DNA of 63,746 nucleotides, counting the filler, from Craspedostauros australis (Eukaryota): the NCBI GenBank assembly GCA_030167865.1. It is 16 parts of 16 records of this genome, joined end to end, with 100 filler letters (N's around TTAATTAATTAA, not from the genome) between each part and the next. Parts side by side here need not be neighbours in the genome. Positions count along the whole stretch, not along the records: positions 27,958 to 30,225 come from JALAGF010006088.1; 15 more parts are not named here. One strand, written 5' to 3'. The position numbers and the translations under genes were made by a program. The notes below the pieces were generated by a model. It was not told the DNA's origin and ran no database searches. It saw only the letters and a program-made list of their open reading frames with translations. The stretch's first letter is position 1. Each line of letters starts with the position of its first letter. Below are positions 1 to 63,746 of this stretch, one piece after another.

Positions 1-233
1 GGTACAACCAGCCACAACACACACGATATCACAGTATGCCACATGTGACTATGACACTGCACACCATGACACCTAATATCACACAAGAATATGAGATACA
101 ACACGCTCAACAGTCTCAACATGACAGTGCATGGATGCAGATGAGCTGCTGTGAACATTAGTCTTTGATTGCGTTGAAATGTCACTTTCTGAAATAACAC
201 GGTTGTTACCCTAAGGTTACAGGTTACTGTAAA

Positions 234-253
234 CCCTAACCCTAACCCTAACC
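234..253 (+). repeat. Three tandem CCCTAA telomere-type repeats
   Basis: ccctaa ccctaa ccctaa cc read directly; TTAGGG/CCCTAA is the known telomere repeat of model diatoms. Confidence 0.75.
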
Positions 254-2590: not shown

Positions 2591-2968
2591 ACACACTCAC
2601 ACACACATACATGTGCTCACTCACACCCACACTCACACCCACACTAACACCCACACTAACACCCACACTAACACCCACACTCACACACACATACATGTGC
2701 TCACTCACACCCACACTCACACCCACACTCACACCCACACTCACACCCACACTAACACCCACACTAACACCCACACTAACACNNNNNNNNNNNNNNNNNN
2801 NNNNNNNNNNNNNNNNNNNNNNNNNNNNNNNNCCACACTCACACCCACACTCACACCCACACTCACACCCACACTAACACCCACACTAACACCCACACTA
2901 ACACCCACACTAACACCCACACTAACACCCACACTAACACAAACACTCACACAAACACTCACACACAC
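2591..2968 (+). repeat. 12-bp tandem array (ACCCACACTAAC / ACCCACACTCAC), spans an N gap
   Basis: Direct reading; produces the spurious TPTL-repeat ORFs. Confidence 0.92.
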
Positions 2969-2999
2969 AGTTGGAACACACTGCGGAGCGGCTGACACA

Positions 3000-27957: not shown

Positions 27958-30225
27958 TCCTCGCAGGGATTGAGCGTTCCTGTGACGTTCCATCCATAGT
28001 GTCTCGCCGTCCTGGAGATCGTGTAAGAGTCAACGTGGCCTAGCATCTTATGCAACTTATTCACATCCATGGGCTTCTTTGTGTCGAATCCGATGTTCGC
28101 CATCTCTTCGTCTTTGGGGACTGGAACCATGTTCACACCCAACACAAAGCCACTGTGCGTTGCCATGATCCGGTCAAACCGGATGCGCTGTCCNNNCTTC
28201 TCCAATGCGATGATGACACCTTTGTTACTGATGTCGAACCCATTCTGGAGTGCTTTACCGATGCTGAGGAGATTCACCCAGAGCTTTGGCACGTACCTCA
28301 CTCCCTTCAGGATGATGATGGCGCTCTTGCCATCCTTCTGCAACACTTTCATGCGTAAATCTCCGACCTTGGTGGCACGCAAGAATTTACCGCTTCCGAC
28401 CTTCACCGAAAAATTAGAGAGGCGCACATTAGTCATGCCCTCATCGTTATTCGTGAGGTGGCATGATGCACCTGTGTCGCCCAACCATGTGTTTGCTTCA
28501 TGCTGGTCTGGCGCGATGAGCTTGCTGCTGCTGCTGCTCCCCTCGAGATCCCCGACCACCATGGCCAAGTCATAGCCTCGAGTAGCCATCGCGATGTGGT
28601 CCGCCATCTCCAGTCGGTATTGCGNNNNNNNNNNNNNNNNNNNNNNNNNNNNNNNNNNNNNNNNNNNNNNNNNNGCGTAAATCTCCGACCTTGGTGGCAC
28701 GCAAGAATTTACCGCTTCCGACCTTCACCGAAAAATTAGAGAGGCGCACATTAGTCATCCCCTCATCGTTATTCGTGAGGTGGCATGATGCACCTGTGTC
28801 GCCCAACCATGTGTTTGCTTCATGTTGGTCTGGCGCGATGAGCTTGCGGCTGCTGCTGCTCGCCTCGAGATCCCCGACCACCATGGCCAAGTCATAGCCT
28901 CGAGTAGCCATCGCGATGTGGTCCGCCATCTCCAGTCGGTATTGCGGACTCCCCACACGGGGTCCCTTCTTTGGCAACTCGCGACATTCTATTCCGTCGC
29001 GTACTTCGGTGTCTTCCCAGTTGTACATCCACATGAGTCGCTGAGCTGACATTTTGCTCATTCTCGCGATCAGGTGATTTGGGAGGAGTGGAAGTTGCCT
29101 TTCTTCAAGTAGCTCATTAACCATCACGAGCTTGCATGACACATCGAACATTCCGTTTATCCCGATTTGCGTGAGCATGTAGTAGAGCTCACGAGCGCCC
29201 ATACACTGTGCTCCTGCGTCGATGGTCGCCTTTCTCACGTCGTAGCATAGAAGTGCCACATTGAAGCGCACATCGTTCGCCTCCAATNCGTTGGATAGGG
29301 AGACCCTNANGGCGTCCTCCACTGATCCGAATCGACCAAGGATCTCGCGACGGCGAGCAATCTCGGCTTCAGTGCTCGGTGGGAAAGTGTCATCTCCCCA
29401 GAGGGTGCGGATCTTGAATGGATTATACTCGGTGCAATCCGTGCACCATGAGTACATCGCTCCGCGAGTGAGACAGAGTGGGCACCATGCGTCCATTCTG
29501 CTTCTCTCACATGCGCGGTCGATCTCTTCACGCAAGAAGCGATCGATGGGGTTACCAGTGCGAGCCACTGTCGTTCCTCTCCCATGCGCAGTCGGCGCGT
29601 CGTCGAAGTCCATTCCAGGCATCGCGATCTCTTCATTGTCCGCGATGATCTCGTCGATGACGTCGTACTCAATCAGGTCTTCACTCATGAGCTCGAGGAT
29701 ATCGACCTTGCTGTCGTTGGTTGGCGATTCGGCTCTCGCAGCCGGAGGGAATGTTCCCATGAACTCCACGATGTCGTCCTCGTCGTCGCTATCGATCACA
29801 ATCTCGTTATGATCGTTGATTTCGACGAAGTCTCCGTCCGCGATGATGAGCGCCATATCATCCATCGCGTCGTCGCCATCCATTGCCACATTGGCACTTT
29901 CGGCGTCTTTCATCGCTGCTTTCAGCTTAAAGCATTGAAGGATCTTGTGCCCTGCCTTTCCGCAGTAGTTGCACTTGCCGTCGAACTGCACCTTCTTGAG
30001 TCCGCCTTTGGCGTTGGTGTTGTGGCCTTGTTTCTTGGCACCACCGCCTCTCTTGTTGTTGTTGCCTCCCTTGGCTGGCGCACGACAGTCCGCCTTCTTG
30101 TGCCCGTAGGCGCCACAGTTGCGACAGTTTCCCTTGAACTGGCCAACTCCAATCAGTGCGAACTCTTCGCTACCGTTGTTGCCTGCGCGCTTATAACCAT
30201 GTTTGAGATGGTGGCGGTCGTAGGT
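27958..30225 (-). mobile_element. Ty1/copia gag-pol fragment: two CCHC knuckles, extra domain, aspartic protease, pre-integrase
   Basis: CRNCGAYGHKKADC, CNYCGKAGHKILQC, WLGDTGASCH, VRYVPKLWVNLLSI, LHKMLGH; ~250 nt duplicated across the N gap. Confidence 0.92.
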
Positions 30226-30325
30226 NNNNNNNNNNNNNNNNNNNNNNNNNNNNNNNNNNNNNNNNNNNNTTAATTAATTAANNNNNNNNNNNNNNNNNNN
30301 NNNNNNNNNNNNNNNNNNNNNNNNN

Positions 30326-30652
30326 GGCGAGTACTCATGGAGTAGGAGCCAGTACTGAATGAACGGAGTGTCGAATACGGAGTACGTATCGAACACGGAG
30401 TATCGTGCGTGACGAGCACACGATGTTGAGAGAGAGAGAGAATACAGAAGAGGAGCGAGAGAGCATCTCGCGTACCGACTCATAGTCGGAGACTGAATCT
30501 ACGAAACAGATTGAAGCACCGAGAGCATCGGGCGAAAGAACGGCGTACACCGAGAGCATCGGAGTAGCCAAGTAATGAAATAGCAAACAGACGACTATCA
30601 ACCAACACCATCTTCCACGATCGTAGGTTACCGTGAGCGGAACTTGCCAACA
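30326..30652 (+). mobile_element. LTR family 1, partial, probably a 5' LTR
   Basis: Ends ...gaacttgccaaca at the same base as three other copies that have different flanks; followed by an ORF at 30735. Confidence 0.8.
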
Positions 30653-30734
30653 CGTTTATAAACGATAGATCAGGGCGAGCCCGCGGCTCGGATCGTGCGA
30701 GGAAGACGAACATCATTCAATAGCAACAAGCTGA

Positions 30735-30923
30735 ATGAGCGAAGAAGAGGAATTGAGAGACATCCCTCTGTCCCAACTGGCTATCAAGCAAGAAGAAGGT
30801 GCGAGTGAGACTCCACCACCAGAAGAGAAAGGAGTAGCAGCGGCTACTGTCCTATCAGGCGCAGACGCAAGCGCGATCGACGAGACCGAAGAAGAACGGT
30901 CTGCAAGGCTACACCGCGAGAAG
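30735..30923 (+). CDS. Start of an ORF just downstream of the LTR (putative gag), truncated by a gap
   Basis: ATG 83 nt after the LTR end; charged sequence; no diagnostic motif. Confidence 0.4.
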
Positions 30924-30973
30924 NNNNNNNNNNNNNNNNNNNNNNNNNNNNNNNNNNNNNNNNNNNNNNNNNN

Positions 30974-33907: not shown

Positions 33908-36900
33908 GGAAACACATCAGAGGAGCCCCCATCCCGTCCCGTCACAAATGAAACTGCGCGAAGAGTTGATGGGACAGCAGCTCTCATGGAAGGTACCTAC
34001 ATTCCACATGCACGAACGGAGTTATGCGTACCTGCGCTCATCCCCGATGTAGCTACGAGTAGAAAGTAATATTGGTATGGTGCGCGTACACACACACACA
34101 CACACACACACACCCTATCCGAAATAGAGAACCCACAATGTTAGTAGAGGACAGTCAGAACGCTTTCGTGGAGGTTGTTGCCAATGGAGGTGTTTGCGAG
34201 ACTCATAATGGAGGTGGTAAGGGTCATAATTTCATAATATCCACAAGGATTTTTCGTCGCACAAAAGTCGAAAAGTTGCGTCAGGACGCAACAGTCTCAG
34301 AAAATTTCGATTTCTTGCGTCAGGACGCAAACTGAGAATTAGCGTGGGAAATTAACACGATGAAAAAAATGCATCGACTAGTTGGACTGATGGACTCGAA
34401 AAGATCCTCCTCTTGTGCGGACTTCCTTCGTGTTATTTTCTGAGCTTGTTTCTCGTGTTGTTTTCGCGTAGTGTTCAGTGTTCTCTAGATCAAGCACATA
34501 CTCTAGAGGATGCTGCCATTTGCAGTGATCATGAGGATGCCAACTCTAGTTTGTTGGTACCATATTAGTAATAGCACTACCACAACAGCATAGACGTTGT
34601 GTTTTGTTTAGCTAGCCAGTGTCTTCATGTCTACTCGACTACGTGCATTTCTTCGTGTATCGATAGGACCTGCGGTTCTTTCCGTGCCTACTTCACATTG
34701 AGCAGTTCCTCTCCAGGCATCTTCACATGGAATCAGTGTCTAATTCATTCATTGTGAGGTGAGATGTGCATCTTGGTTTGTNTTTGCATCTATTTTGCGT
34801 CCTGTTCCGTTGGGTCCAANCTCATTGCATGATCCAATCGAATCAAGATCGCCATCCGTGTGCTTATCTTTCAAGCAAAGATTGCTTGCTACATTGAGAA
34901 ACATGAATGTGTTAGTACTATCATGAATAAGAAGATGTACATATGTGATAGCAGGANGGCAATCGGATTCACCCAGATTCTGGCCGCACGCATGACCGCC
35001 GCGAATGCAGTTGCTTTCCCACACATTTGTTTCTGCCAACCAAAGGGATCTCACTTGACAACAGTGCAGGTACATACTGGCAAACACCATCTGCTTCTAT
35101 TGTTTGTATGCCTCATGTGGTCTTAGAATTGAACTCTGCACAGGAAGACCATCCATGCCTTCGTTGGTGCAAANNNNNNNNNNNNNNNNNNNNNNNNNNN
35201 NNNNNNNNNNNNNNNNNNNNNNNTTGAGCAGTTCCTCTCCAGGCATCTTCACATGGAATCAGTGTCTAATTCATTCATTGTGAGGTGAGATGTGCATCTT
35301 GGTTTGTATTTGCATCTATTTTGCGTCCTGTTCCGTTGGGTCCAATCTCATTGCATGATCCAATCGAATCAAGATCGCCATCCGTGTGCTTATCTTTCAA
35401 GCAAAGATTGCTTGCTACATTGAGAAACATGAATGTGTTAGTACTATCATGAATAAGAAGATGTACATATGTGATAGCAGGATGGCAATCGGATTCACCC
35501 AGATTCTGGCCGCACGCATGACCGCCGCGAATGCAGTTGCTTTCCCACACATTTGTTTCTGCCAACCAAAGGGATCTCACTTGACAACAGTGCAGGTACA
35601 TACTGGCAAACACCATCTGCTTCTATTGTTTGTATGCCTCATGTGGTCTTAGAATTGAACTCTGCACAGGAAGACCATCCATGCCTTCGTTGGTGCAAAA
35701 TCTTGCGTGAGATTCTGTTTTGCGGCGGGGATGCGCCAAGTGTTGGAAGTCCAAACCCGGTAAGCACAAGCTTAAGGACAATTGACAGAGCATAACATTT
35801 TATTTGAAGCGATGTGGAATGAAAGAGAGCCTTGTACTTTCATGAAAACCAAGATTGTTGATGATCAATGTGCGGAGGCGAATTGTCGTGCAGAAGGCAT
35901 GCACTATGTGCCCCAAACAGCACCACAGATAACACAGAGCTGATGGGTGAGCGGAAGTACTCTTTTAACTGAGAAGGAGCGAAAATAGGCAGCAAAGATG
36001 GCAAAGAGAATGGTAGTTTCACAACAGGAAGGAGGACAACGGAGCCGGATGCGAAATATCTGGCTGCTTTCCTCCTCTACGCAAGCAAGAGAGTATGGAA
36101 GAGGCGAAGAATGTGATTTACAACACATAGAATCACTAATGTATGGATTGCAACATTGAGAGAGTTGTTTCGATACTATTGTTGCTGGAAGTGGAGCGCA
36201 AATAAGATTTACATCCGTCAGTACAAAACAACACGGTAAAGCACACAGTATTTGTCCAAAAGCACAGGCGACAAATGACGATATTGGACGATTTGTGGAG
36301 CGAGTGTTCGAGTGAGTCATAATATTTTGCGCTCCGTGTTTTAACACGGAGCGAGTCGATCAAGACCTTGAAATGAAAAGTCTAATCGGATTTCTGGGAT
36401 TTACAAACAAATCACATATTAACAATACTCGTCATCTCTTTATGCATAATGGAACCTTTCAGATTGTAGTTAGTTTCATTTTAAGTTTTATGGATCAATC
36501 AATGTGTTTAGTCTAGTCGCGTGAATCCAACAGCACAAAATTTGTTTGTTTCTGCCGAAGGTTCGATGATGTTCTCACGTATTTATCGTCTGGTGATCAG
36601 TCACGAACTTGCTTCCGAAGGTCTCAGTCGTTTGGTACACGTTAATTACACGTTAGCATGTGGCGCATGATTCCACATTCTGCTCGTCACAAAACACGTG
36701 ACACAAAACACATCACACAAAACACATCATCCCCATCATTTTGCAAAANNNNNNNNNNNNNNNNNNNNNNNNNNNNNNNNNNNNNNNNNNNNTTAATTAA
36801 TTAANNNNNNNNNNNNNNNNNNNNNNNNNNNNNNNNNNNNNNNNNNNNCCCCCTGACAAACAGGCACATCGAACATGGCAGATTCTCTGGTCATGAGCTT

Positions 36901-37025
36901 CCACGTTGACAGATACCCAGTCACGATGTTGGTGAGAGGTCAAGTACAACACTAGCTTCCACGGGAAGCGTGGGATACTTGGTGATCTGGAGTGCTTTCG
37001 TTTGGGACAATGCTAGAGATGATCG

Positions 37026-40000
37026 ATGCATGATTCATCACCAACAGCAACACCAGCAGCAACAACAGACAATCACAAGCACACACCACCACCACCAGCA
37101 CAGCCATCTACTTTCACACATACAGACCGAACTACCTGGAATCGTCCCCTTCGCACCATGAATCGTGCACTTGGAGGAGCACCGTACTATGGCAGAAGGT
37201 CTCCGCCACACAAACGACATCGTGCTCACGATGGTACCTTTGAGCATCACTCGGGGTACCAGACCAACACACCATCCCCCCACAGACAGGCCTCCAGTTT
37301 TGGGGCATCTGTCCTGCGTGATTCTCAACCGTACTTCTCCCCTCCTGCAATGCCTCCTCTGCCGTCACCAGAGCATCGGATGCCACCACAGTACCTGCCT
37401 CCACCATGGCACGGGGTGCCACACACGCAGGCGCCGCCGTACCTGTATGGAATGCCACCACGATCTTCGCACCCTGTGACATCACCACCCCAGAGCACGT
37501 ATGCGTACAGTGGCAGAGCACATGATCAACATTATCACACCGCATACTCTTCACCACCTGCACCACAATATGCGGCTGGACAAACGTATTGGCAGCAATC
37601 GGCATACAGTGGGTCTCCACTATCGCCATCCCCACTCCGAGCAGAGCCACATACTTCACTTGCTCAACCATATGTGGACACGCAACTGCAGCAGCATTCG
37701 CACATGCAACTGCAGATGCATCTCACGCCACCTGCTACTCACCCCCAGTTCGGATCCGATAATCCTCCAAGTTCCTCTGACGGCAATGCTGTGCACGGAC
37801 TCGAGGTGCTGGCATGTCCATGGCCTCCCGATTTGGCCTGTCCCGCACCTACGATATGTCGATATAGAGATGNNNNNNNNNNNNNNNNNNNNNNNNNNNN
37901 NNNNNNNNNNNNNNNNNNNNNNTCGCACCCTGTGACATCACCACCCCAGAGCACGTATGCGTACAGTGGCAGAGCACATGATCAACATTATCACACCGCA
38001 TACTCTTCACCACCTGCACCACAATATGCGGCTGGACAAACGTATTGGCAGCAATCGGCATACAGTGGGTCTCCACTATCGCCATCCCCACTCCGAGCAG
38101 AGCCACATACTTCACTTGCTCAACCATATGTGGACACGCAACTGCAGCAGCATTCGCACATGCAACTGCAGATGCATCTCACGCCACCTGCTACTCACCC
38201 CCAGTTCGGATCTGATAATCCTCCAAGTTCCTCTGACGGCAATGCGCATTCCACCATGAGTGGAGTTGCCACTGAACCAGGGCAGCGCGATCCGTCGCAA
38301 GAACATGGCGCAGTCGCACACAACAGCCATCAATTCGCCACCCCACCCGCGGTTGCTGCCGGCACCACGACCACCACGACCACCACCACCACAAAGCCAG
38401 GACAGCGCAACCGTTTTGGCATCATGAGGTGTGTCGGATGCAACGAGCACTTCTGTACTCTAGCTTGTTGCTTCCAAGACGGCATTGATTTGGGACTTTG
38501 CATGGACTGCTTTGTTGCATCAGCCATCAGAACCAATGACTTCACGTCCACAGCAGCAGCAACAACAACAACAACACCAACACACGCTGCGACGAACGAA
38601 CCAACCGACCATGCAAGTCTTTAAGTCCAAAACCCCGATCCGCCAACAATGGAAATGGAGGTCATTGACAACCAGACGCTCGATGCAACAGACACCCCGG
38701 CAGGGACCGACACGCCTGTCAAGGACAGCCATCACACCAACAATGACATCGGCAACGGTCATGACCAAACCATCACCAACAACGCAAGCACTGGCGCAGT
38801 TCGTGACGTTGATGTGGCTGAGCAACGTGCTCAGGAGGAGCCGCACGATGAGCCACATGATGATGCTGATGTCCAGGGCGATGTCAAGATCCTCGATGAC
38901 GCAGAGTCGACAGACCCAAGCGCAGACGCGGAGATGATGAGTGTCCTCGAACTCAGGTCCGACGAACAGGAGGGCAGCGGCAACAGCGACGACAACGACA
39001 GCGACTATGACCAAGCCGAAGATAACGGCAACGAATCGGACGCCGATGAAACGATGAAAAGCAAGCTGATCTCTATTCTCGCCGAAGGACAAAGGCACGC
39101 AGCTTATTTGAGAGACTTCCCAAACAACGGCTTCGTGAAGGTCCCAGACAACACCGAATTACAATCACAAATGTGGTCAGTGATCACCCGGGCCTGGAAC
39201 GAATTGAGCGCTGTCGGATCCAGAATACTTTTTTCGAACACGACGCCTCTTCGTCAGCTGAAGGAAGTCATGAAGTTTGTGCGAGAGGACCAACAGTTGC
39301 CATCAACGACATTGGAGGAGACTGTCTGTCTGATGATATTCTTTGGAAGCCACGACGTGGCACAAATGGGACGCGCAATCCTCGCCCACACCTCCAGCCG
39401 CGAAGACTGCGCAAAAATTCTCCGCGGGCACGCAGACAAGCTTTCAGAAGAACAGCGAGCACAGGTCGATTCCATGCGCACGAACCTGTGGCATGTCTGC
39501 TACAACAACGCAATGGAGGATGCAATCAAGCTTCTTGGTGGAGCCGAGTTCCCGCTCAAGGGAAAGCGAACCCGTCTTTGCAAGGAAAAGCTGCAGGAAT
39601 TGATTTCCTTTCTCACCTCAGTCACACACTACAAACCCGGCACATCGCGCTCGGTGAAAATGCATGGCATCGTCTACGAAGGATTGCCTGTGTTTCTGCG
39701 CGGCAAAAACTCCGTGAGAGGGTTGTTCCGCAAGTACAAGATGAGCGTTGAGAACAAGCCGGTGGGGTACAACACATTCCGAGAGATATTCGCGCTCCTG
39801 ACCAGGCGTGGCAAGTGCCAAACGGGCCTGTCTTCCTACTACGTTGACATGATGTAAGTATCAGTGAAGCTTTCGGATATGTTTACGAGACTCGGCGTGT
39901 TGCTGGGCGGCGTTGACAGGAAGAAGGAGCTTGGCGAGGATGACAGCATGAAGGAACTTGACGAGGATGACAGGAGGAAGGAGCTTGGCGAGGATGACAG

Positions 40001-42362
40001 CAGGAAGGAGCTTCGCGACGAGATAGGAAGGATTGTCGAAGATTGGAACGAAATCTTCGCATTTGTCAAGTGGGACTACACCCATTCGCACATGAAGCTT
40101 CGTTCCGTATTCGACATGCTGCATCCGTGTGAATATGCGCTCCGCTCCGACTATGACATCCACACCGAGAAAGTGTGCGAACGTTGCGCAGACATCCACG
40201 ATTTCTTTCCAGTCCGTGTCCAAGAGTTTCTGCGCCGTGCCATCAAGCATGTTCGAGGCGAAGAGAACAGGAAAGAAGTNGAGACGATGTTTGGGGCTGT
40301 CCTTATCTGCCAGGAGCAGCTTCGAGTATACATGAGTCACAAAGTGAGGGCAATGGTCCAATTCNAGGCAATTCGGGAGGAGAAGGAATCTCTGAAGCAC
40401 AATCCGCGCAAGATGATGGTGGTGCTCGATCACAAGCAGAAAATATTGCCTATCTGCAGCAAAGAGGCCCAATCTGAATACTTTGGGAAGAGAGGTATGT
40501 CGTTGCTGGGTGTGATGACAATTACGTTTGAAGATGGTGCCTATCACTATCGTTTCGTGGATCTGCTCATCAAAACCTACCATTCACAGGACCAGGTGCA
40601 GGTTGCTGGAGCGCTCAAGTTGCTCATGACGAAGATCCTGCCCAAGATGCACCCTGATCGGACAGAAATCGTGATACAAAGTGACAATGCTAGCTGCTTC
40701 TCGAGTCCGTCGCTGATGCGATACATTCATGGGCGGAATCGCGGGGAGGAGGGCGTCGCATTCAATCCCGAAGCCGAGGATCCCAAGACAGAAGAAGTCT
40801 ATGCTGCGGCCAAAGCGGAGGTGGAGACCATCAACAGCGCCAACGCACTGCCCAGACCATCTCATCAAATCATCCGATGGCTGTTTACGGAGGCCCAGAC
40901 AGGCAAGGGCCTGCTGGATGCGCACTTCAGCTACATCAATAAAGGTCTCACTTGGTACATTGACGGATCCGAAAACGGTAAATCACAAACGGAAGAGCAT
41001 GTGTTCAATATTCTTGTGGGGAAGCAGATCAAAGGCAGCGTGACGTTGCTGTTGGAGGGAAAAGACCTGCAAGCGCCGCTTCTGTTCCCAGTCGATCCAA
41101 CGCGCAAAACAACATTCTCCACCACCATCCCACCCAAAACTCGCGCCACGCATGAGTTGGATTTTCGTAACGGCAGTGTCAAAGTCACGGCGTCGTCGGA
41201 TGTATCAGATCCAGTGTTGGTGGACAAGCACCTCGACAAGTACTACATGCAGAACCTCGAGATGAGCATTTTGAAGGGCACGGTGGAGCCAGTGGAGGCT
41301 GCGTTCGTCATCAAGCCAGGAGGAGCCAAGAAATCAACGAAGCAGGCGGCGAAAGCCACTGCAGCAGCAGCCGACAACTCCACGAATCAGGCAGCACATT
41401 CCATCCCTGCAGCAGCCGACGACTCCACGAATCAGGCTGCACATTCCACCCCGGCAGCAGCCACACAATCCACGGAGCAAGCAGCGCAATCCACCCAGGC
41501 AGCAGCCAACGAATCTACGGAAGATGCTGCTCGATCCACCCAGGCAGCAGCAACACAATCCACGGAGCAAGCGGCGCCCTCCACCCAGGCAGCAGCCGCT
41601 CAATCCACCTCGACGGCATCCAACGCATCTACGGAACATGCTGCTCAACCCACGGAGGTTGCGGCCGCCCATTCCATCCAGGCGACAGCCAACGAATGTA
41701 CGGAAGTTGCTGCTCGAACCACCCAGATAGCAGCCGCACAATCCACAGAGCAGGTCGTGCAATCCACCTCGGCAGCACCCAACAATTCTTCGGAAGATGC
41801 TGCTCAATCCACCCAGGCAACAGCCACACAATCCACAGAGCAAGCAGCGCAATCCACCAAGAAGCCAACTAGCTCGAAACGAAAGAGAGGCGAGGACCGC
41901 ACCAAAACAATAGACTGGCGTAAGGGTGTGAGGAAGCGTGCAATGGAAGAAGTGGTCCCGCCTCGTTCATCATACAAGGACGGCGCAACAAAAGATGCCC
42001 CAGCCAATTGTCGAGCTGGTTGGGCGAAGACCTTCCAAGACAAGCCGAAACTCACCACAGCTCAGAAAGCCGCGGCATCGTCCGAGAAGGCACCCCTCAT
42101 GTCGAGGGCGGTCGCAGAGATCATTTGTCGGGCGAAGATCGATGGTGAGAAAGATAAAGACAAACGAGAGACGGCGTACGTCGTGTACGATGCCTTGCTG
42201 AAAGGACCTCTGATTGCTGATTGGGAAGGACGCATGAAGACAACCATAGCATTCATCAAATCATTCCTGGCAGGTCCAGTGAAGCGTGCGATAACGTACT
42301 TGAAAGAGCTAGAGAAATTGGACAAATGCGAACAAAGAGAACAACAAGGAATACGAGGTTGA
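37026..42362 (+). pseudogene. Very large Sola-like DDD transposase, copy B; one frame broken by in-frame TAA at 38622 and 39855
   Basis: ORFs ending 38624, 38649..39857 and 39864..42362 are in frame. VLDHKQKILP..EAQSEYFGKRGMSLLG, QSDNASCF, WLFTEAQTGKGLLDAHF. A ~320-nt segment is duplicated across the N gap. Confidence 0.8.
41340..41860 (+). repeat. Coding tandem repeat, ~45-nt / 15-aa unit (AATQSTEQAAQSTQA-like), about 11 copies
   Basis: Visible in the translation of 39864..42362. Confidence 0.85.
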
Positions 42363-47923: not shown

Positions 47924-50900
47924 AGGCGCGACCTTCAACAACGAGTGTGACATTGAGATCCTAGGCAACCACGAGCAAAATTGCACACTCAATGCAACCA
48001 ACGAGAAGCTCTTCGTCTGTGTGCACATCACCACCAATAATGGCATGATTCTTGACACCTCCAAGGTCACAGTCCAGGCCTTTGGACAGGGCTCCAATGC
48101 TGGGACAAAAGTGCATGTCAAAGTCTGCGTCCCGACTCCTCCAGCTTTCCCCGCACCCCTTCCCACACTGACTATCCAACCAGCAAAGAAAGGCAAGTGC
48201 ATCCAATGCCGCAAGGCTGGCGACAACGAAGCCTTCCGCCCCAAGGGACGCAACAAAATCAAGAGCAGGAAATCAAATGCGGGAAGATTCCAAAACAAAT
48301 ACAACACGAACAAGAGAGATGCGTTTGAAACCATCCACAATGTTTGCAAGAGCTTGGAGTGAAGAACCTTGCGACTGTGCTGACCAAATTTCCTCATTGC
48401 GGATTTGTATTGGGGCGCAAATCCAACAAGCAAGTGTGAAGCAAAGCGAAGAAGATCTTCGCAGTGGCCTCCAATGCGCTGTGGAAAGCGCTGATCCCAG
48501 CCATGACCTTGCCAGTTCCGCAGATGGAGCAAGTGGTGGCGTTCGTGCGCGCGGGGGTAGACTTGCCACCTATCAAGCTGGCTCCCAACCTCTACGCGAT
48601 TTGCCTCGTCGGCAAGAAAAACATTGCACGCAAAGCAAGGTGCATTCTTGCCATGTCTGTCTNNNNNNNNNNNTGTACTAACCTCCTCTCGCGACACAAG
48701 AGCGAACTTCCTGACGATCAGCGTCTTCGCCTCTTGCCAGAGCAATACACCATCACACGAGGCCAGCTCCTCACTCTGCGCAACTACTACGAGCTCTTGC
48801 GCGAGGGCAATGTGCTTGGTGCTGCTGTTCACGACTATCGTGTCAGCACATACAGCTTGGCCGGCATGGCGTCCTTCATCAGCAACACAACCACATACAA
48901 GGTGGGCCTTTGTCACACTATCAAATTGGGAGGGGTGATATTTGAAAACGTGCCNNNNNNNNNNNNNNNNNNNNNNNNNNNNNNNNNNNNNNNNNNNNNN
49001 NNNNGCACAACACGAACAAGAGAGATGCGTTTGAAACCATCCACAAGGTTTGCAAGAGCTTGGAGTGAAGAACCTTGCGACTGTGCTGGCCGACTTGCCG
49101 CGTTACGGGTTTGTGTTGGGGCACAATTCCGACAAGCAAGTGTGGAGCAAAGCGAAGAAGATCTTCGCGGTGGCCTCCAATGCGCTGTGGAAAGCGCTGA
49201 TTCTGGCAATGAACTTGCCANNNNNNNNNNNNNNNNNNNNNNNNNNNNNNNNNNNNNNNNNNNNNNNNNNNNNNNNNNNNNNNNNNNNNNNNNNNNNNNN
49301 NNNNNNNNNNNNNNNNNNNNNNNNNNNNNNNNNNNNNNNNNNNNNNNNNNNNNNNNNNNNNNNNNNNNNNNNNNNNNNNTGTACTAACCTCCTCTCGCGA
49401 CACAAGAGCGAACTTCCTGACGATCAGCGTCTTCGCCTCTTGCCAGAGCAATACACCATCACACGAGGCCAGCTCCTCACTCTGCGCAACTACTACGAGC
49501 TCTTGCGCGAGGGCAATGTGCTTGGTGCTGCTGTTCACGACTATCGTGTCAGCACATACAGCTTGGCNNNNNNNNNGTCCTTCATCAGCAACACAACCAC
49601 ATACAAGGTGGGCCTTTGTCACACTATCAAATTGGGAGGGGTGATATTTGAAAACGTGCCAGTATTCGAATGTGGCAGAACAAGCGTAGACGAGCTGTTC
49701 CACATGTACAAGATTACGACAAACAATCCAGTCAGCAAGCCAGCATTCTGAGCAATGACAGGCCTGCTCACACGCAGAGACAAAGTGGTTACTGGTCTCT
49801 CCTCTTTCGAAAACTACTTCTGGATGGCAATGAAGACGTTGAAGGAGATGCTCATGCGCTTGAATACCCTACTCGAGGATTCATTCAACAGTGATGACGG
49901 ACACGACGACCTAACCATGGAGTATATTCAAACCTGTGAGACATTGGTGTGCAATCTGGACCTAATGATCACATGCCTCAAGTGGGAGTATACTGCGTCG
50001 CACATGCAGATCAAGTGCAAAGAAGACTGCATGCACTGCGCTCTTTTCGCGCTTCGCCGCGATCCAAAAACGCGACAGGCTAAATCTACACTCAACACCA
50101 CCACCACAGCACCTGCCAGCACCGATATGACATGCGTGGTCATTCATCCTCCCACAACAACAACAGAGTGTGATGCCAATGCCATTTCTCCCATCACTCA
50201 TGATCAACAAGGCAAAGTATGCGACAGATGTGGAGACGCGATGCGATTCATGGATGTTCGCGTCGCACCATTCATCGAGACGCTCAAGGCCGATCATCTT
50301 GGCGACCATGAGGATGAATTAGGCAGTATGCTGGAGGCGGTACTGGGCTTCTACAATTAGATCACTGTGTACATGGCACACCAAGTGAGAGCAAAGGTCC
50401 AATTCAATCAGATGAACAAGTACAAGGCCAAGCTCAACAACAATGACAAGTGCACCTATGTCGTCATCAACCATAAGCAGAAGATTCTGCTGACAGCACA
50501 AGGAAAATTGCAGACAGAGTACTGGGGCAAGAAGGGCATGTCGCTCCTTGGTGTTATGATTGTCACTTGCAAAGATGACAAATTCACGTATCGCTTTGTT
50601 GATATAATTGTTCATGACCTGCCAACCCAAGACACACTTAAAGTTGGTGGGCTTCTCAAAGCCATCCAAAAGAAGGTACGCGATCTCCTACCATTGGTGA
50701 CAGAAATCATCATGCAGTCAGACAACGCTGGCTGCTTTGCCAGCCACAAGCACATCGTGCTCGTCTCATCACGGATCAACAAGAATGTGTCATGCAACAG
50801 ACTTCCCCAATTTGTCATTTGGATCTACACAGAAGCCCAAACCGGCAAAGGGCGAATCGACACTCACTTCGCCTACATCACTATCGTACTACGATCCTAT

Positions 50901-51614
50901 GTGCAAAGTGGTGGCAAAATTCAAACCGAACATGAGATCTTCGACGCATTGCAAATGGGAAATATCAGAGGCACTACCACCGTCTTGGTTGACGCATCGG
51001 GTTTGAAAGGTCGCTGTGTGACGCACAAGACAAATGCACGCATCAAATTCCGCGCGAAGGGCATGAATGTACGATCAACGCACGAGGCGCAACACAGAAA
51101 CGGCTACGCAGACATACTTGCAGCTTCAAATGTTACTGATCCAGTGCATGTGGAGGAAGTTGAATGGGAAGACTATGACGTCATGAATTCCGAGGTTCCT
51201 ATCATGATAGAACACCAGTCCACACAAGAGCCACTCGCAACAACATCACCACGGAAGCAGAAAAAGACTCTCAGGTTCGCGAAGAGTGCCACCGAAAGCA
51301 AGGCGCTGATGTACCTCGAAGGGATCAACATGGCAGCCTTGGAGACACCTGACGTAAGTAGTGTGCTGCAGGACACCACAGCAGCAACAGAACATCCGCG
51401 ATTGGCTGAACCTGGCTGGGCTGCGAAAGCCATACGATGTAACAAGCCCATTCGCCCATACCTGGTGGAAGTGTTGGAGGAGGTGTGCAGAGTGGCACGC
51501 GCGGACCCGAAGAACAGACCAACTGAGTATGAGGCATTCAGGCGGTGCATGGAGACGACCGAAATGAAGACTGACTGGTATGCGCGGGTACACGTGAACC
51601 CAATGCGAGTGAAG
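47924..51614 (+). pseudogene. Sola-like DDD transposase, copy C; truncated at both ends, with stops and a frameshift
   Basis: VVINHKQKILL..EYWGKKGMSLLG (first Asp changed to Asn), QSDNAGCF, WIYTEAQTGKGRIDTHF; in-frame stops at 49749 and 50358; colinear with copy A. Confidence 0.82.
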
Positions 51615-51715
51615 NNNNNNNNNNNNNNNNNNNNNNNNNNNNNNNNNNNNNNNNNNNNTTAATTAATTAANNNNNNNNNNNNNNNNNNNNNNNNNNNNNN
51701 NNNNNNNNNNNNNNG

Positions 51716-52951
51716 CTCGACAAGCTATCGACGGCGGCGTACCTGACAAAACCCAGCCTACTTCCGTTGGTCCTCCTGAAGAGCGTGAGGCGGACGTTCA
51801 ACAACGGCATCACTCTGTACTCCCCAGCCGCATTCGCAATCCTTGGGATGATCCTGGGTTGGACGCTGGGACGATCACAGGAGAGTCGAGTTTGCGCCAA
51901 CCACGCAATCGACATGGTGCAGAAGATGGAAGATCGGTCGTCGGAGGCCAGAGTCATCCTCTTGTGCAACGCCTTCGTGCTGCAATTCACCCAGGCGTTC
52001 GAAACCTTGAGAAAATCGCTGTTGCGAGCTTACAGCATCGGAATGGCGACGGGGGATGTCGAATCGGCCCTGTGGTGCATGTTCGTCTTCATCGACATGT
52101 CTTGGTTCACCGGCAAGTCACTCCATACCCTCGACATGGATTGTTCCACCTACAGCAAAGTATCGGCGGACTTCGGCCAGATGCGGCAGGCGGAATGTAT
52201 CAAGCTGACTTGGCAAGCCATACTGAATCTGAGGGGATTCGCCAAGGATCCATCCATCATGGTCGGGGACGCGTGTGACGAGGTCACAGCAATGCCTCGG
52301 TACGAGCAACAAGGAGACGACTTTCTGAAAGCAACACTGCTGAGAATGAAGATCATGATGGCGACATACTTCGGAGATTTTGAGACCGCCGCTGATCTTG
52401 CCCTGATCACGTTTGATCTGCACCATGAGGCAATCCCAGCCAGCCTAGTATTTCTTCCATCGTCCTTCTTCTGTTCCTTCGCGTGCTACGTGGCCGTGTC
52501 GATGAACCGGAGGAGCAGGCGGGTCATTCGGCAATACAAACGCATGGCGACTCGGGCTCGACGGATGATCCAGATGTGGAACAATCGGGGCAATCCGAAC
52601 TGCGCGCACTACTTGGCCATCCTCGATGCAGAGAGATCCATCGGGAAATCTCCCACCCCGCCGGGCCGCTTCGCTGGAAGATCCAACAACCAGCATCCAG
52701 CAGTTACAAGCTACCAAAAGGCAATCCGGTTGACAGCGCGCCGTGGTTTCATCAACGATCGGGCATTTGCCAACGAAAGGCTTGCATACTACTTCCGCCA
52801 ACACACGGACGATGAAGAGAGCGCGCGGTTTCATTTTGACGAGGCCATGCGCTTGTACAAAGAATGGGGCGCCGATGGGAAAGTGAAATCGATGGAAGGC
52901 AAGAGCAACCACCTGTGGCAGCCACCGTCTGAGATCGAAGTCACGATGTGA
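51716..52951 (+). CDS. C-terminal helical/TPR-like part of a STAND/AAA-ATPase-type signalling protein; 5'-truncated
   Basis: AYSIGMATGDVESA, GNPNCAHYLAILDAE, YQKAI....RRGFINDRAFANER....A..LY.EWGA.GKV; pattern of the helical C-terminus in the diatom-expanded family related to bacterial kinase-ATPase sensors. Confidence 0.78.
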   Translation, partial: LDKLSTAAYLTKPSLLPLVLLKSVRRTFNNGITLYSPAAFAILGMILGWTLGRSQESRVCANHAIDMVQKMEDRSSEARVILLCNAFVLQFTQAFETLRKSLLRAYSIGMATGDVESALWCMFVFIDMSWFTGKSLHTLDMDCSTYSKVSADFGQMRQAECIKLTWQAILNLRGFAKDPSIMVGDACDEVTAMPRYEQQGDDFLKATLLRMKIMMATYFGDFETAADLALITFDLHHEAIPASLVFLPSSFFCSFACYVAVSMNRRSRRVIRQYKRMATRARRMIQMWNNRGNPNCAHYLAILDAERSIGKSPTPPGRFAGRSNNQHPAVTSYQKAIRLTARRGFINDRAFANERLAYYFRQHTDDEESARFHFDEAMRLYKEWGADGKVKSMEGKSNHLWQPPSEIEVTM

Positions 52952-54553: not shown

Positions 54554-54654
54554 NNNNNNNNNNNNNNNNNNNNNNNNNNNNNNNNNNNNNNNNNNNNTTA
54601 ATTAATTAANNNNNNNNNNNNNNNNNNNNNNNNNNNNNNNNNNNNNNNNNNNNG

Positions 54655-56862
54655 CCCTTCTGGTTGCCCGAGGACGACAAGTCCATGGATAGCACGGAAA
54701 TGATGTGCTTCCTCACCAACGAGTTCGAACTTGATTCAACAGAGGTCAAAAATGTGACCAACCCAAGACTCGTAACAACCCAAGAAATTACGAACATCAA
54801 GAAAAACATGAGCAACGACCACGCCATGATGCCTCCCGAAGAGGAGACCACCAAAGACCTCGCCCTCACGTCCACCGACGAAGAGATGGGCGACCAAGGC
54901 AACGAAGAGCCAAATCAAGGCTCCGAGTGGACAGCGGAAGAGCGGGCGGCCCACCACCCAGGGGTGTATGGTCACTACGGACCACCAGCGGTCGCCGCCG
55001 AGCGCATCAACCGCGAACTCTTCCCGTCCGAAGACGAGTCCACCAATGACGACGAGTTCTTCGACGAGGTCATCTACGATGAAGACCTCGTCAGCACCGA
55101 AGAAGAGTCTACCAACGAAGTGGCGATGGTGATTGGAGCGGAAGACATCTGCAGAGAGCCTGTCTTCTCACTCTCCACCAACAAGTCTCCCATCGAGAAG
55201 ACGATCGAAGCAGCAGGGCGCGCAATGTACCAAGGATGGGCATCGTGTCCACTGTGCTTCAAACAAGGGTACATCTACTCGTACTGCGTCGATTGTCCAG
55301 CCCAGCCCTTCCTCATCGATCTACCGGAAGGAACGGACGTGGTGAAACCCACAACCCACGAAGAACGCGATGAACGCCGCGCAAAGCTCGCAAAGGAGGA
55401 GTCCCTCGCACTCGCAGTGCGATACTCATTGAGCAACGCCATGCCGGCTGACAGTGTGCGTTCCGAGCTTGCCTTGCTGTGCTTCGACACAGTGGAGGAG
55501 TACAACTCGAGAGACAGACGCACTTGCGCGGATGCTCGCACCCTCTACTTCCTCCTACGCGAAATCGGGATGATGACTCCGTTCAACGTCATGAAGTACA
55601 TGCCGTTTATCAACGAAAGGCTGGAGAAGGAGCAGTTGTCAGCCATCCACCACGGACTCATCGGGAGCCTGGCCTCGCGTGGAGCACTCCAAGTCATGTG
55701 GAAATACCACCCAGGTCACTACGGAGTCCGCAGCCCAAATGCGTTCCCTGAATTCCCCATCTACAGCGAGAGAAACCCGCAACCAGACATGGCAATGGTG
55801 ATCGGTGACATCGACGGCGTGGAAGAACGCCGCATCACGCTCGCCCCAGACCGCCATGAGGCAAACACTTGGTTGGGCGACTCAGGTGCCTCGTGCCACC
55901 TAACCAACAACGACGAGGGNATGACCAACGTGCGCGTNGCCGACCACTCCATCAAGATCGGCAGCGGTCGCTACATCAAGGCAACAAAGGTGGGCGACAA
56001 GCGCATGGTGGTAATGCAGAAAAACGGTACCACCGCAACCATCCTCCTCAAGCACGTGAAGTTCGTGCCCAAATTATGGGTGAACCTCCTCAGCATCAAC
56101 AAAGCGCTTGAGAGCGGCTTCAACATCAGCAACCACGGTGTTGTGATGAGCCTGGAGAAGCGCGGACAACGTATTACGTTTGACCGGCTTATGGCTACCC
56201 ACAGCGGGTTCGTGAGCGGCGTCAACATGATCACCGCCCCTCACCCTCACGATCAAGCCNNNNNNNNNNNNNNNNNNNNNNNNNNNNNNNNNNNNNNNNN
56301 NNNNNNNNNCCCAAATGCGTTCCCTGAACTCCCCATCTACAGCGAGAGAAACCCGCAACCAGACATGGCAATGGTGATCGGTGACATCGACGGTGTGGAG
56401 GAACGCCGCATCACGCTCGCCCCAGACCGCCATGAGGCAAACACCTGGTTGGGCGACTCAGGTGCCTCGTGCCACCTAACCAACAACGACGAGGGGATGA
56501 CCAACGTGCGCGTAGCCGACCACTCCATCAAGATCGGCAGCGGTCGCTACATCAAGGCAACAAAGGTGGGCGACAAGCGCATGGTGGTAATGCAGAAAAA
56601 CGGTACCACCGCCACCATCCTCCTCAAGCACGTGAAGTTCGTGCCCAAATTGTGGGTGAACCTTCTCAGCATCAACAAAGCGCTCGAGAGCGGGTTCAAC
56701 ATCAGCAACCGCGGAGTGGTGATGAGCCTGGAGAAGCACGGACAACGCATTACGTTTGACCGGCTTATGGCTACCCACAGTGGATTCGTGAGCGGTGTTA
56801 ACATGATCACCGCCCCTCACCCTCACGATCAAGCCAATGTTGGCGTGTCCACCAAGACCGCG
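54655..56862 (+). mobile_element. Ty1/copia polyprotein fragment: acidic linker, extra domain, aspartic protease (same family as 27958-30225)
   Basis: WLGDSGASCH, VKFVPKLWVNLLSI; the protease segment is duplicated across the N gap; cut at 56863 by an LTR. Confidence 0.9.
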
Positions 56863-57123
56863 TGTTGGCAAGTTCCGCGCACGGTAACCTACGATCGTGG
56901 AAGATGGTGTTGGTTGATAGTCGTCTGTTTGCTATTTCATTACTTGGCTACTCCNATGCTCTCGGTGTACGCCCGTTCTCTTGCCCGATGCTCTCGGCGC
57001 TTCAATCTGTTTCGTAGATTCAGTCTCCGACTATGAGTTGGTACGCGAGATCCTCTCTCGCTCCTCTCTGTATTCTCTCTCTCTCTCTCAACATCGTGTG
57101 CTCGTGCTACACGATGCTTCGTG
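56863..57123 (-). mobile_element. LTR family 1 inserted in opposite orientation into the Copia ORF
   Basis: tgttggcaagttccgc... is the reverse complement of the LTR end at 30652 and 31301. Confidence 0.88.
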
Positions 57124-57223: not shown

Positions 57224-58100
57224 GATCATCGAAAGCTCGACGCGCACATCGGTGGCAGACGCCATGCTGCTCAACGAGTATCGAACCAAGAGGCAGATCG
57301 GACCTGCATCCACAAGCAGTCCTCTGCGCTCCTCATCACTCGTTTCGCCTTCATTGTAGTTGGCGTTGCCGTCTTCCTCTTCATTCTCGGATGAAAAGGG
57401 TTGTCTGTTGATCAACTCCATCGTGATCGTTCGTAGACCCGTAGTAGCTATACACTCCTGGAGTGTACTCGGCTATCTCCTCCCTGGTCCACTCGCAGTC
57501 GTTGACTGGTGTTCCGCTGTCGAAGTCGGAAACCCCATCATTGTTGATTGTTACGAGTGCCATGTTGTTCGTGATCGCGTTNTCGTCGCGCATCATCGTG
57601 TAGTTTCACATGGTCACATTTTGGTCGTTGTTCGCGATTTCGGTGATGGCCACGAATTTCGTGTTGGTCACATTTTTGATGCCGACCACATTTTCGTTGA
57701 TGGGCATGGACATCGGCTCGTCAGTTTGTGATGAGAGCGATGTCATCCATCCCTTCCATCCTGTCTGTTGCGACCTTGACCGACCTGGCTTCCTTCATCT
57801 CACTATCGTGGGCATCGCGGTTAGGACGTCTGCTCCTGAACCGACCGATCCGTTGTCAGTGTCATCTATCTTTCTCACTCTCTCACTGCCGTTGCCTCGT
57901 GCGCACTTATAACCGTGTTTGATACGGTGGCGGTCGTAGATGAGGCTCATGGCTTCGTAGAGGTCTTGAATCATCATCTTCGTTGATGGCAAGGATACCT
58001 CCTGTTCCTCGTCTTTTGTATTGAGCCTGGGATCGAAGCGCGGAAGGACCTCCCGTCCAGCTTGTTCCAGCGCTTTCCCTTCTCGTTGAAGCACACACTT
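57224..58100 (-). pseudogene. Degenerate third member of the same Copia family
   Basis: YDRHRIKHGYK (cf. YDRHHLKHGYK near 30200), EWTREEIAEYTPGVYSYYG (cf. EWTAEERAAHHPGVYGHYG), VRYSLSSMASATDVRVEL (cf. VRYSLSNAMPADSVRSEL); frameshifted. Confidence 0.72.
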
Positions 58101-59065
58101 CCTGTGTTGCTATTCTCGTTGTTGTCGCCAATTCATGGCTGGTAGATTGCATTCTTACCTCCTCGATCATCTCACAGTAGGAATCGCAGCCAGCCCTCGA
58201 GCATGTATCACACGATGGCAGTCGGTGCCACGTGATCATCTCGATGCTTTCCATTGCTGCTCCTCGCGTCACTCTTGAGATGATCATGATCATGGGCCAT
58301 GCCCATGCCTGCGTAGATCTTGGTCGTCCTTTACCTGATCATCCCTGCCTGCATGCTCGTGCTCGATTGCGTCGCGCGCACCATGCGCACAGACGTTCAG
58401 CATCAGCGATCTGTGTTGCTCCTCGTTCATCTCGGCTTCCTTATCGACCGAGTGCTGATGAGGCAGCTCCATTCTTGCAGGGTAGGTTGGAAGCTCTCAT
58501 TGCTTCCTCAATTGCATCTTGTTGAGCTCCGTCAGCTGTCTCGCCCTCATGGCGCAGTGTGCTGAATCCGATGCATCCGAGAGCGTGGCCTGCTGCGTCC
58601 GAATCTCTTCTTGCGTACAGCTCGTTCTCGTACTCCAACACAGCCGTGAAGGTCTCCATGCCTTCCTCGACTTCATGGTCCCATGACCATGGACAGTTCT
58701 TCCAATGCGTGGGTTCTGAGCGCCTCCTTGCTTCAGCAATACATGTAGTGTCTGTACTTGCCTCAGCTGCGGTCTCCACTCTGCTGGTGGACTCGCGGTG
58801 GTGCTCGATTCGATCATCATCATCGTCTTGATATCGTCGTTCGTGTGGGGGTTACCATGCCGATCTTGGCATCCATTGGCAAGGAGCATCATGCTCCAGA
58901 GCGGCTTGCTCTCCTCTCTCTTCACACAGGCGACCATTACTCGCGATGGTCTTGAGTGTAGATGGTGGTCATGTCGATGATGGTGATGTTGGCTAGTGTT
59001 GGTGGTGGTGGAAACNNNNNNNNNNNNNNNNNNNNNNNNNNNNNNNNNNNNNNNNNNNNNNNNNN

Positions 59066-60469: not shown

Positions 60470-60570
60470 NNNNNNNNNNNNNNNNNNNNNNNNNNNNNNN
60501 NNNNNNNNNNNNNTTAATTAATTAANNNNNNNNNNNNNNNNNNNNNNNNNNNNNNNNNNNNNNNNNNNNA

Positions 60571-63500: not shown

Positions 63501-63746
63501 GTGCTGCAGAGGCGATATGATGACCGAAACGGAAGCGACCTACGCTCCAGTCGTCGCATGGTCGTCCGTCCGCGTCTTTCTCATCCTTTCCATTCTGCTC
63601 CGCTGGGTCACGACATCGATCGATTTTTCGAACGCGTTCGTCCAAGCCGACATCCACCGGCCTGTCTACTTACATCTTCCTCGCGGCTTCCGATCAACGA
63701 ATGGACCTGACACGTGCCTCAAGCTGATTAAAAGCCTTTACGGTCT
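60571..63746 (+). mobile_element. Ty1/copia (CoDi-like) pol, open across the whole scaffold: integrase, long insert, reverse transcriptase N-terminus
   Basis: Frame starting at 60571: CAACQFGKQ, PGQQVSVDHF, FVDHASGYIH, LSDNA, NGVAERSI, ITPQFHVVFDDWF, then DPDTLSFNEAM..W..A..KEI..L, GTWVFRRKRMPDG.VKKYKGRWC.RGD, IDFSNAFVQA. Absent from the ORF track because it has no stop in the window. Confidence 0.95.

What the first reader, a model, noticed from the sequence alone, without database searches (positions are those of the whole stretch)
29020..29490. Conserved extra C4-zinc + helical domain inside Copia polyproteins, between Gag and protease
Seen: between the CCHC knuckles and the WLGD(T/S)GAS protease, two diverged elements (here and 55237-55710) share a ~155-aa segment: CPLC...G..YS.C.DC...PF...E...RR..L....S...A.R.SLSN......VR...ALLC.D......D......AR.LY..L..IG....F.V......NE.LE..QL......LI........MW.Y. 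The acidic linkers around it do not align. A third decayed copy (57224-57420) keeps the RYSLS..VR.EL part but appears to lack the Cys motif. Established: canonical Copia has only a short linker here. Inference: a selected cargo protein, for example an anti-silencing or chromatin/RNA-binding factor, made as part of the polyprotein.
Basis: partly seen in the sequence, partly recalled or inferred. Interest (0 to 1): 0.75.

Follow-up and report, generated by a model that had tools for sequence, protein, structure and literature searches.

The report
Unnamed folded domain inside Copia retrotransposons
A group of Copia jumping genes carries, inside its single polyprotein between the capsid and protease parts, an unnamed folded domain (a five-helix bundle, often with a zinc finger) that looks set up to be cut out as a separate accessory protein; its job is not yet known.

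Summary
The segment (window 28990-29568 and 55159-55740, 36% identical) sits in frame between tandem CCHC knuckles and the protease in at least six diverged Copia lineages of this genome (154 matches). AlphaFold folds it confidently (pLDDT 86). It has two separable parts: a CxxC-x3-G-x5-CxxC zinc finger and a five-helix bundle of the SAM/Rad51-N/aIF2alpha-domain-2 fold class (Z 6-8, middling). Among about 118 outside Copia relatives (median linker about 60 aa), about 16 carry the bundle and 11 the zinc finger at the same place, in any combination. A second Copia group in this genome has the bundle only. No Pfam, PDB or viral match was found. It is under purifying selection (dN/dS 0.20), but no more than its linkers (0.23-0.26), and it diverges far faster than Gag. 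The motif that marks the protease/integrase junction also flanks it, so it is probably released as a free protein. Best reading: a protein-interaction accessory factor. Anti-silencing is possible but unsupported. The third window copy lost the zinc finger by deletion in a dead family. This is a new variant of Copia with function untested.

The parts
28570..30273 (-). Copy 1: partial Copia polyprotein ORF (end of Gag, two knuckles, acidic linker, module, start of protease); lineage A, same as L084, 95% identical to L032
30085..30126 (-). CCHC knuckle 1
29932..29973 (-). CCHC knuckle 2
29614..29631 (-). Putative protease cleavage motif (E-x-A-M type) before the module
   Evidence: cleavage is inferred
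29434..29484 (-). C4 zinc finger, CxxC-x3-G-x5-CxxC (copy 1)
29287..29433 (-). Strand plus two-helix connector joining the finger to the bundle (acidic spacer in outside relatives)
29017..29286 (-). Five-helix SAM-like bundle (copy 1)
28876..28893 (-). Putative cleavage motif after the module, about 28 aa before the protease DTG
   Evidence: cleavage is inferred
28077..28809 (-). Copia aspartic protease (Pol_BBD), partly duplicated by the assembly (28353-28624 repeats 28675-28946)
54610..57036 (+). Copy 2: partial polyprotein ORF (lineage B); protease stretch duplicated across a gap; cut after the protease by an inserted LTR
55117..55134 (+). Putative cleavage motif before the module (copy 2)
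55246..55296 (+). C4 zinc finger (copy 2)
55441..55713 (+). Five-helix SAM-like bundle (copy 2; the modelled sequence)
55786..55803 (+). Putative cleavage motif after the module (copy 2)
55870..56260 (+). Protease (copy 2)
57224..59016 (-). Copy 3: decayed non-autonomous derivative of lineage C; module remnant at 57224-57403, zinc finger removed by a deletion of about 300 nt near 57334-57360

Best explanation
The module is an accessory protein of a Copia clade, encoded at the Gag/protease junction of a single Gag-Pol ORF. It is translated with Gag and enters the particle with it. The element's own protease cuts it out at the flanking [ED]-x-A-[LMN]-hydrophobic sites, giving a product of about 220-260 aa. 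Its core is a SAM-like five-helix bundle that serves as a protein-interaction surface, with an optional C4 zinc finger that stabilises it or adds a second surface. It most likely works as an adaptor, contacting itself, other particle proteins or a host factor during assembly, maturation or delivery to the genome, as the Gag spacer proteins p6 and p12 do in retroviruses (analogy recalled). Shown: position, frame, selection, modularity, motif placement. Predicted: the fold. Inferred: cleavage, zinc binding, protein binding.
For: In frame in long ORFs such as L030 (1982 aa) and L031 (1746 aa), with order Gag-CCHC-module-PR-IN-RT. Two models from 18%-identical lead sequences give five helices (pLDDT 85.6 and 87.5), and both lists are dominated by SAM, Rad51-N, NusA-AR and aIF2alpha domain 2. 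The second alignment included 12 rows from this genome, so the models are not fully independent. Conserved columns are hydrophobic core plus Asn, Gly and Thr, with no catalytic set. The bundle is neutral or acidic in 25 of 30 segments. The motif lies within 45 aa after the module in 31 of 32 copies and within 40 aa before it in 25 of 37, against 0 of 23 windows in integrase, and it recurs at the PR/IN junction. Ty1 sites read N*NV, A*AV and H*NV (PMC6952103, passages). dN/dS is 0.20.
Against: Fold scores are only Z 6-8, which the tool calls common, and Foldseek found nothing. No binding partner is identified. dN/dS equals that of the linkers. Most lineage D copies lack the nearby upstream motif (about 10 of the 12 misses). 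The motif is loose: it occurs in 5 of 28 RT-RH windows and inside the module in some lineages. At least 7 relatives inside the carrier group lack the bundle in open reading frames, so it is dispensable for some lineages. This genome's fused form also has conserved arginines that could bind nucleic acid.
Confidence: 0.45

Rival explanations
1. Nucleic-acid-binding extension of nucleocapsid: the finger and bundle bind the element's RNA or cDNA (as Smaug-type SAM or HhH domains do) and help packaging, priming or strand transfer.
For: It lies right after the knuckles. The fold class includes DNA and RNA binders such as Rad51-N, Pol X and NusA. R73, R74, R88, R101 and R127 are at least 90% conserved in 36 copies from this genome.
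Against: There is no G-h-G hairpin between helices 4 and 5. Most segments are neutral or acidic and sit in very acidic linkers. No basic residue is conserved across the 30-sequence family alignment.
Confidence: 0.2
2. Counter-defence factor: the freed protein binds or mimics a host silencing or translation-control component (small-RNA, DNA-methylation or eIF2 machinery) and evolves in an arms race.
For: Between lineages the bundle is 31-49% identical against Gag 63-82% and protease 70-84%. It has been gained, lost or duplicated repeatedly. The top fold match of the outside model is aIF2alpha domain 2 (Z 8.0, rmsd 3.5, 80 residues, 18% identity).
Against: No region has pooled dN/dS near or above 1. 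The aIF2alpha match is only about 1 Z above SAM hits and reaches only Z 5.1 with the other model. Fast divergence with a kept core also fits a plain scaffold. No host target was found.
Confidence: 0.17
3. Cis-acting spacer: a folded block that times protease activation or separates Gag from Pol in a one-ORF polyprotein, with no job once it is cut out.
For: Constraint equals that of the linkers. Conservation is of the hydrophobic core only. Many relatives have long acidic spacers with no domain.
Against: The four Cys and the Gly are invariant across six lineages, and the same spacing recurs in 11 outside elements. A spacer would not need a kept zinc site or a kept fold at under 20% identity.
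Confidence: 0.13
4. Functionless captured host fragment hitchhiking in one successful family.
For: No homologue among 1.84 billion representatives apart from one spurious repeat protein.
Against: dN/dS CI 0.16-0.24. It is kept in frame across lineages 29-49% identical. Profile homology with outside elements has probability 92.8, E 4e-7, against at most 1.3 for controls. It accumulates stops only in dead derivatives.
Confidence: 0.03

Closest known systems
Ty1/copia (Pseudoviridae) elements with tandem CCHC, such as diatom CoDi6.2-6.5 (PMC2806351, passages and section 18 read)
   Same: Gag, tandem knuckles, PR-IN-RT-RH order, one ORF.
   Different: Carriers hold a 90-190 aa folded module between knuckles and protease; the passages read mention only the knuckles in this region.
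SAM-like fold class: SAM domains (5jti, 3k1r), Rad51 N-terminal domain (3lda), NusA AR (1u9l), aIF2alpha domain 2 (1yz6), AF1548 C-terminal domain (1y88)
   Same: Five-helix arrangement; rmsd 1.8-3.5 over 57-80 residues; the turn motif 'gI.t..d' (motif likeness recalled).
   Different: No sequence-profile match; identity mostly 8-19%; longer first two helices; no HhH G-h-G; Z only 6-8.
Extra domains in LTR polyproteins: chromodomain and aRH (PMC6317226, passages), dUTPase and ORF3 cargo (PMC5408684, abstract), NADAR (PMC12477816, passages)
   Same: A lineage-restricted cargo domain in an LTR element.
   Different: Those are recognisable families, mostly in Ty3/gypsy and in Pol or separate ORFs; this is unnamed, in Copia, at the Gag/PR junction.
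DnaJ-type or anti-TRAP CxxCxGxG zinc hairpins (recalled)
   Same: Two CxxC pairs, a Gly four residues after the first pair, a strand after the second.
   Different: No Pfam match; the second half is usually CxxC-x-D-[ST]-G in outside elements and lacks the Gly in this genome.
Retroviral Gag spacer proteins (HIV p6, MLV p12; recalled)
   Same: Small non-enzymatic product released from Gag by the protease.
   Different: Those are largely unstructured and unrelated in sequence; the likeness is one of position and logic only.

Membership tests
Ty1/copia | Pol order PR-IN-RT-RH with Copia-type RT (RVT_2) | tested here: met
   Pol_BBD, rve, SH3, RVT_2 in order in 3 of 3 ORFs; RNase H motif read by eye in L030 and L031
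Ty1/copia | Copia-type Gag with CCHC knuckle | tested here: met
   Retrotran_gag_2 in 2 of 3 and zf-CCHC in 3 of 3
Ty1/copia | Paired LTRs and primer site for lineages A-F | tested here: inconclusive
   Contigs are short; a motif scan of 7 loci found no clear LTR-PBS junction
CoDi6 | Tandem CCHC in Gag | tested here: met
CoDi6 | RT tree placement with named CoDi references | not testable with these tools
   No named CoDi sequence was available; relatives bear no organism names
SAM domain | Match to SAM Pfam profiles | tested here: not met
   0 of 36 and 0 of 23 members
SAM domain | Five-helix SAM-like fold | tested here: inconclusive
   Best SAM hits Z 6.3 and 6.8 (rmsd 1.8, 62 residues); middling by the tool's own scale
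SAM domain | Head-to-tail self-association | not tested
   The complex predictor was not available
HhH DNA-binding motif | G-hydrophobic-G hairpin between the last two helices | tested here: not met
   No such conserved columns in 30 aligned segments
a/eIF2alpha domain 2 | Fold and homology to the middle helical domain | tested here: inconclusive
   Z 8.0 with the outside model, 5.1 with the window model; no PDB profile hit
DnaJ-type C4 zinc finger | CxxCxGxG repeats or Pfam match | tested here: inconclusive
   Partial motif in 12 outside fingers; no Pfam hit in 19 whole proteins
Transposon anti-silencing proteins (VANC-like) | Sequence-specific loss of silencing of its own element | not testable with these tools
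   No expression or methylation data; no family match

The most novel reading that the evidence does not exclude
A Copia clade of probably diatom hosts encodes a protease-released, fast-evolving counter-defence or targeting protein at the Gag/Pol junction: a SAM-like or eIF2alpha-like decoy with a swappable zinc finger that engages host silencing or translation control. It would be a retrovirus-style accessory protein in a Pseudoviridae polyprotein, and the junction would be a general cargo slot.
Probability: 0.17. Interest if true: 0.8.

Novelty: new variant of a known kind. Interest (0 to 1): 0.52.

Why it matters
Copia elements are usually treated as minimal Gag-Pol machines, and their extra domains are far less studied than those of Ty3/gypsy. 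This gives a defined, foldable, selected module with predicted cut sites, and natural elements with both parts, one part or neither, so its role can be tested directly. It also marks a large Copia group in a host group where Copia activity shapes genomes (PMC2806351).

Tried and rejected
Searches with no informative hit: Pfam on the domain, on 36 own copies, on 23 bundle segments and on 19 outside polyproteins; NCBIfam and PHROGs; PDB by profile, where the best hits were a MetAP zinc finger at E 0.28 and designed repeat proteins; Foldseek on PDB and viral structures; ESM Atlas, best 0.85 and 0.82, leads only. The word-index search with one copy found none of 5199 candidates. The profile search of 1.84 billion representatives gave one hit, P0003, a Lys-rich repeat protein rejected as spurious. 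The metagenome contig scan had 55 pattern matches and none confirmed. No sequencing run was listed, which says nothing on expression. The profile search with the bundle returned 9 proteins: P0008, P0028 and close relatives; the 4 new ones I read looked like Copia polyproteins or fragments. No host gene of origin was found, but sensitivity is low. A single origin of the module is not shown: FastTree puts all carriers in one 51-row clade (SH 89), IQ-TREE splits them into two groups plus P0004 with a weak base. A profile of this genome's C4 finger was too weak to recover outside fingers, so the motif pattern was used instead (0 matches in reversed linkers, 56). The third window copy was rejected as a functional finger-less variant. 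A homodimer prediction could not be run, so there is no verdict. The N-terminal half was not modelled alone, so its fold is barely tested.

Full report
Observation. The window is a gapped assembly. Copy 1 (28570-30273, minus) reads Gag end, two CCHC knuckles, acidic linker, the segment, protease. Copy 2 (54610-57036, plus) reads acidic linker, the segment, protease. The segments are 36% identical over 173 aa, E about 4e-29. Pfam sees the knuckle and the protease but nothing in the segment. The third copy at 57224-57403 matches weakly (E 0.003). It is 88-97% identical in DNA to loci L057-L061, which belong to a decayed family that jumps from the end of the module to the end of integrase. This subfamily also lost about 300 nt covering the Cys motif.

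Family in this genome. A search with copy 2 gave 154 matches from 150 of 167 candidates scored, a lower bound. I fetched 89 loci (83 contigs by my count of the listed places). All 89 hold the module; 86 have Gag or Pol homology and the other 3 are short and have the Copia linker. Of 92 hits reaching the end of the profile, 66 have the protease motif in frame downstream, 17 end within 70 aa, and 9 do not show it (gaps, dead copies, fragments). Long ORFs such as L030 (1982 aa, with gaps) and L031 (1746 aa) run Gag-knuckles-module-PR-IN-RT-RH with no stop. At least six lineages exist, 29-49% identical in the module. In 36 clean copies the four Cys, a Gly, an L-S-N motif and a few core residues are invariant.

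Structure. AlphaFold on that alignment gave pLDDT 85.6 and pTM 0.87: short strands around the Cys cluster, then nine helices. Foldseek found nothing in PDB or viral structures. VIA-align matched residues 99-185 to five-helix domains: AF1548 (Z 7.0, rmsd 2.0, 60 aa), Rad51 N-terminal domain (6.9), SAM (6.3), NusA (6.0); the top row was a mitoribosomal protein at Z 7.1 with rmsd 4.9. A second model of the bundle from outside protein P0008 (pLDDT 87.5, same five helices) matched aIF2alpha domain 2 (Z 8.0, rmsd 3.5, 80 aa), tankyrase SAM (6.8, rmsd 1.8) and NusA (6.5); Foldseek again found nothing. That these belong to one SAM-like fold class is recalled. The scores are middling and do not show homology or function. 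The N-terminal half is barely tested.

Outside relatives. Direct searches with this genome's sequences found no true homologue. I therefore took the 120 listed of 200 closest relatives by protease-integrase and read their linkers. The protease was located in 119. Among the 100 with a knuckle the median linker is 60.5 aa and 31 are 150 aa or longer; 11 of 119 carry the exact CxxC-x3-G-x5-CxxC spacing, with 0 matches in reversed linkers. P0033 starts inside the protease and was dropped, leaving 118 linkers. A profile from this genome alone scored five linkers at 10-19 bits against 4.8 for the best decoy. I then anchored 18 candidates by eye: 14 of 18 scored 10 bits or more in leave-one-out tests, 4 did not; two of those four reached 10-11 bits with a larger profile against 2.4 for decoys. 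Profile-profile comparison of own against outside bundles gave probability 92.8, E 4e-7, over 53 columns; reversed and 20 shuffled controls gave at most 1.3. The parts separate: bundle only (P0004, P0019), finger only (P0199), two fingers (P0028), both, or neither. A second Copia group in this genome, 40-46% identical in protease, has the bundle without the finger: 13 of 16 ORFs passed, none has the motif. The relatives carry no usable organism names.

History. In a FastTree of 139 PR-IN sequences all carriers lie in one 51-row clade (SH 89) with several non-carriers inside and none among the 88 rows outside. The label needs 5 changes against at least 15 in 500 shuffles (107 labelled rows). 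IQ-TREE on 61 chosen rows gives two supported carrier groups (98, 93) plus P0004 with an unresolved base. One gain followed by losses is plausible but not shown.

Selection. Over 21 pairs the module's dN/dS ranged 0.04-0.31. Pooled over 9 non-overlapping pairs it is 0.20 (CI 0.16-0.24): finger 0.14, bundle 0.23, upstream linker 0.23 (7 pairs), downstream linker 0.26 (7 pairs), protease 0.10 (7 pairs), Gag 0.25 (4 close pairs, wide CI) (gaps ignored). So it is selected but not more than the linkers. Between lineages the bundle is 31-49% identical, Gag 63-82%, protease 70-84%. What sets it apart from the linkers is a kept length, core and fold, not a lower rate.

Processing. A motif [EDQ]-x-A-[LMNFY]-hydrophobic stands before and after the knuckles, in the linker, on both sides of the module, and at the PR/IN junction. 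It lies within 45 aa after the module in 31 of 32 copies and within 40 aa before it in 25 of 37; most misses are lineage D. Background: 0 of 23 integrase windows, 1 of 16 module windows, 5 of 28 RT-RH windows. Ty1 protease cuts at N*NV, A*AV and H*NV (PMC6952103, passages), which is compatible. Release as a free protein is an inference.

Mechanism. No catalytic residues are conserved, the bundle is mostly neutral or acidic, and the HhH glycines are absent. I therefore favour a protease-released protein-interaction adaptor (0.45) over nucleic-acid binding (0.20), counter-defence (0.17), a cis spacer (0.13) and no function (0.03). The complex predictor was not available, so self-association is open.

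Literature. Eight searches listed no paper describing such a domain. Read in passages: PMC2806351 (plus section 18; tandem CCHC in CoDi6.2-6.5), PMC6317226, PMC12477816, PMC6952103, PMC13547354 and bioRxiv 10.1101/2025.10.24.684338; abstract and outline only: PMC5408684. The library lacks most subscription journals, Repbase and GyDB entries; I did not read the supplement of PMC2806351, and bioRxiv supplements are closed, so an earlier mention is not excluded. Earlier scan notes hold nothing on this sequence or genome; two unchecked notes report a Tpt1 enzyme at the same junction in dinoflagellate Copia.

Verdict. A real, selected, undescribed two-part module of a Copia clade: a new variant of a known kind, interest 0.52.

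Noticed in passing
window 62641-63027 (+), in the Copia ORF 60526-63744: A different Copia element carries a non-repetitive stretch of about 130 aa between integrase and RT with no Pfam match and no match to the bundle profile. It has 26 matches in the genome: 19 at 93-100%, 5 at 53-56% and 2 weak, so it may be a second unnamed cargo domain.
   Followed up: partly
window 30326-30925 (+); L094, L103, L108: 5' LTR end, leader and probable Gag start of the bundle-only Copia group. The LTR's CA end is followed by a 12-nt perfect palindrome instead of the usual TGG primer site.
   Followed up: partly
window 56863-57120 (-), also 21204 and 31301: LTR pieces of the same group; one is inserted in reverse into copy 2 just after the protease.
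   Followed up: partly
L036/L048, L031/L040, L045/L069: Synonymous divergence changes in blocks along the polyprotein (module 1.0 against 0.25-0.34 in the flanks for L036/L048), suggesting recombination that swaps the module between subfamilies.
   Followed up: no
L050-L061, L063, L073 and window 57224-59016: A multi-copy decayed family lacking protease and integrase, with shared stops and nested deletions, spread as non-autonomous copies.
   Followed up: partly
P0034, P0048, P0050; P0025/P0216; P0008 family: Other outside Copia relatives carry different non-acidic blocks at the same junction: an aromatic-rich block in P0034, P0048 and P0050, an unrelated block in P0216, and a different Cys cluster before the bundle in P0008.
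   Followed up: no
window 37023-42362 (+) and 49752-52951 (+): Chains of long same-frame ORFs (533, 410, 834 aa; 202, 433, 426 aa) separated by single stops or short breaks; no clear Pfam match in the five scanned; a 45-nt repeat at 41300-41900.
   Followed up: no
window 228-5460: Arrays of about 190-200 nt repeats containing telomere-like TAACCC units with strong C and A skew, probably subtelomeric.
   Followed up: no
window 28353-28946, 55734-56609, 34698-35523, 37467-38222: Near-identical duplications of about 300 nt, at least the first two across N gaps; probably assembly artefacts. The doubled protease in copies 1 and 2 is of this kind.
   Followed up: yes
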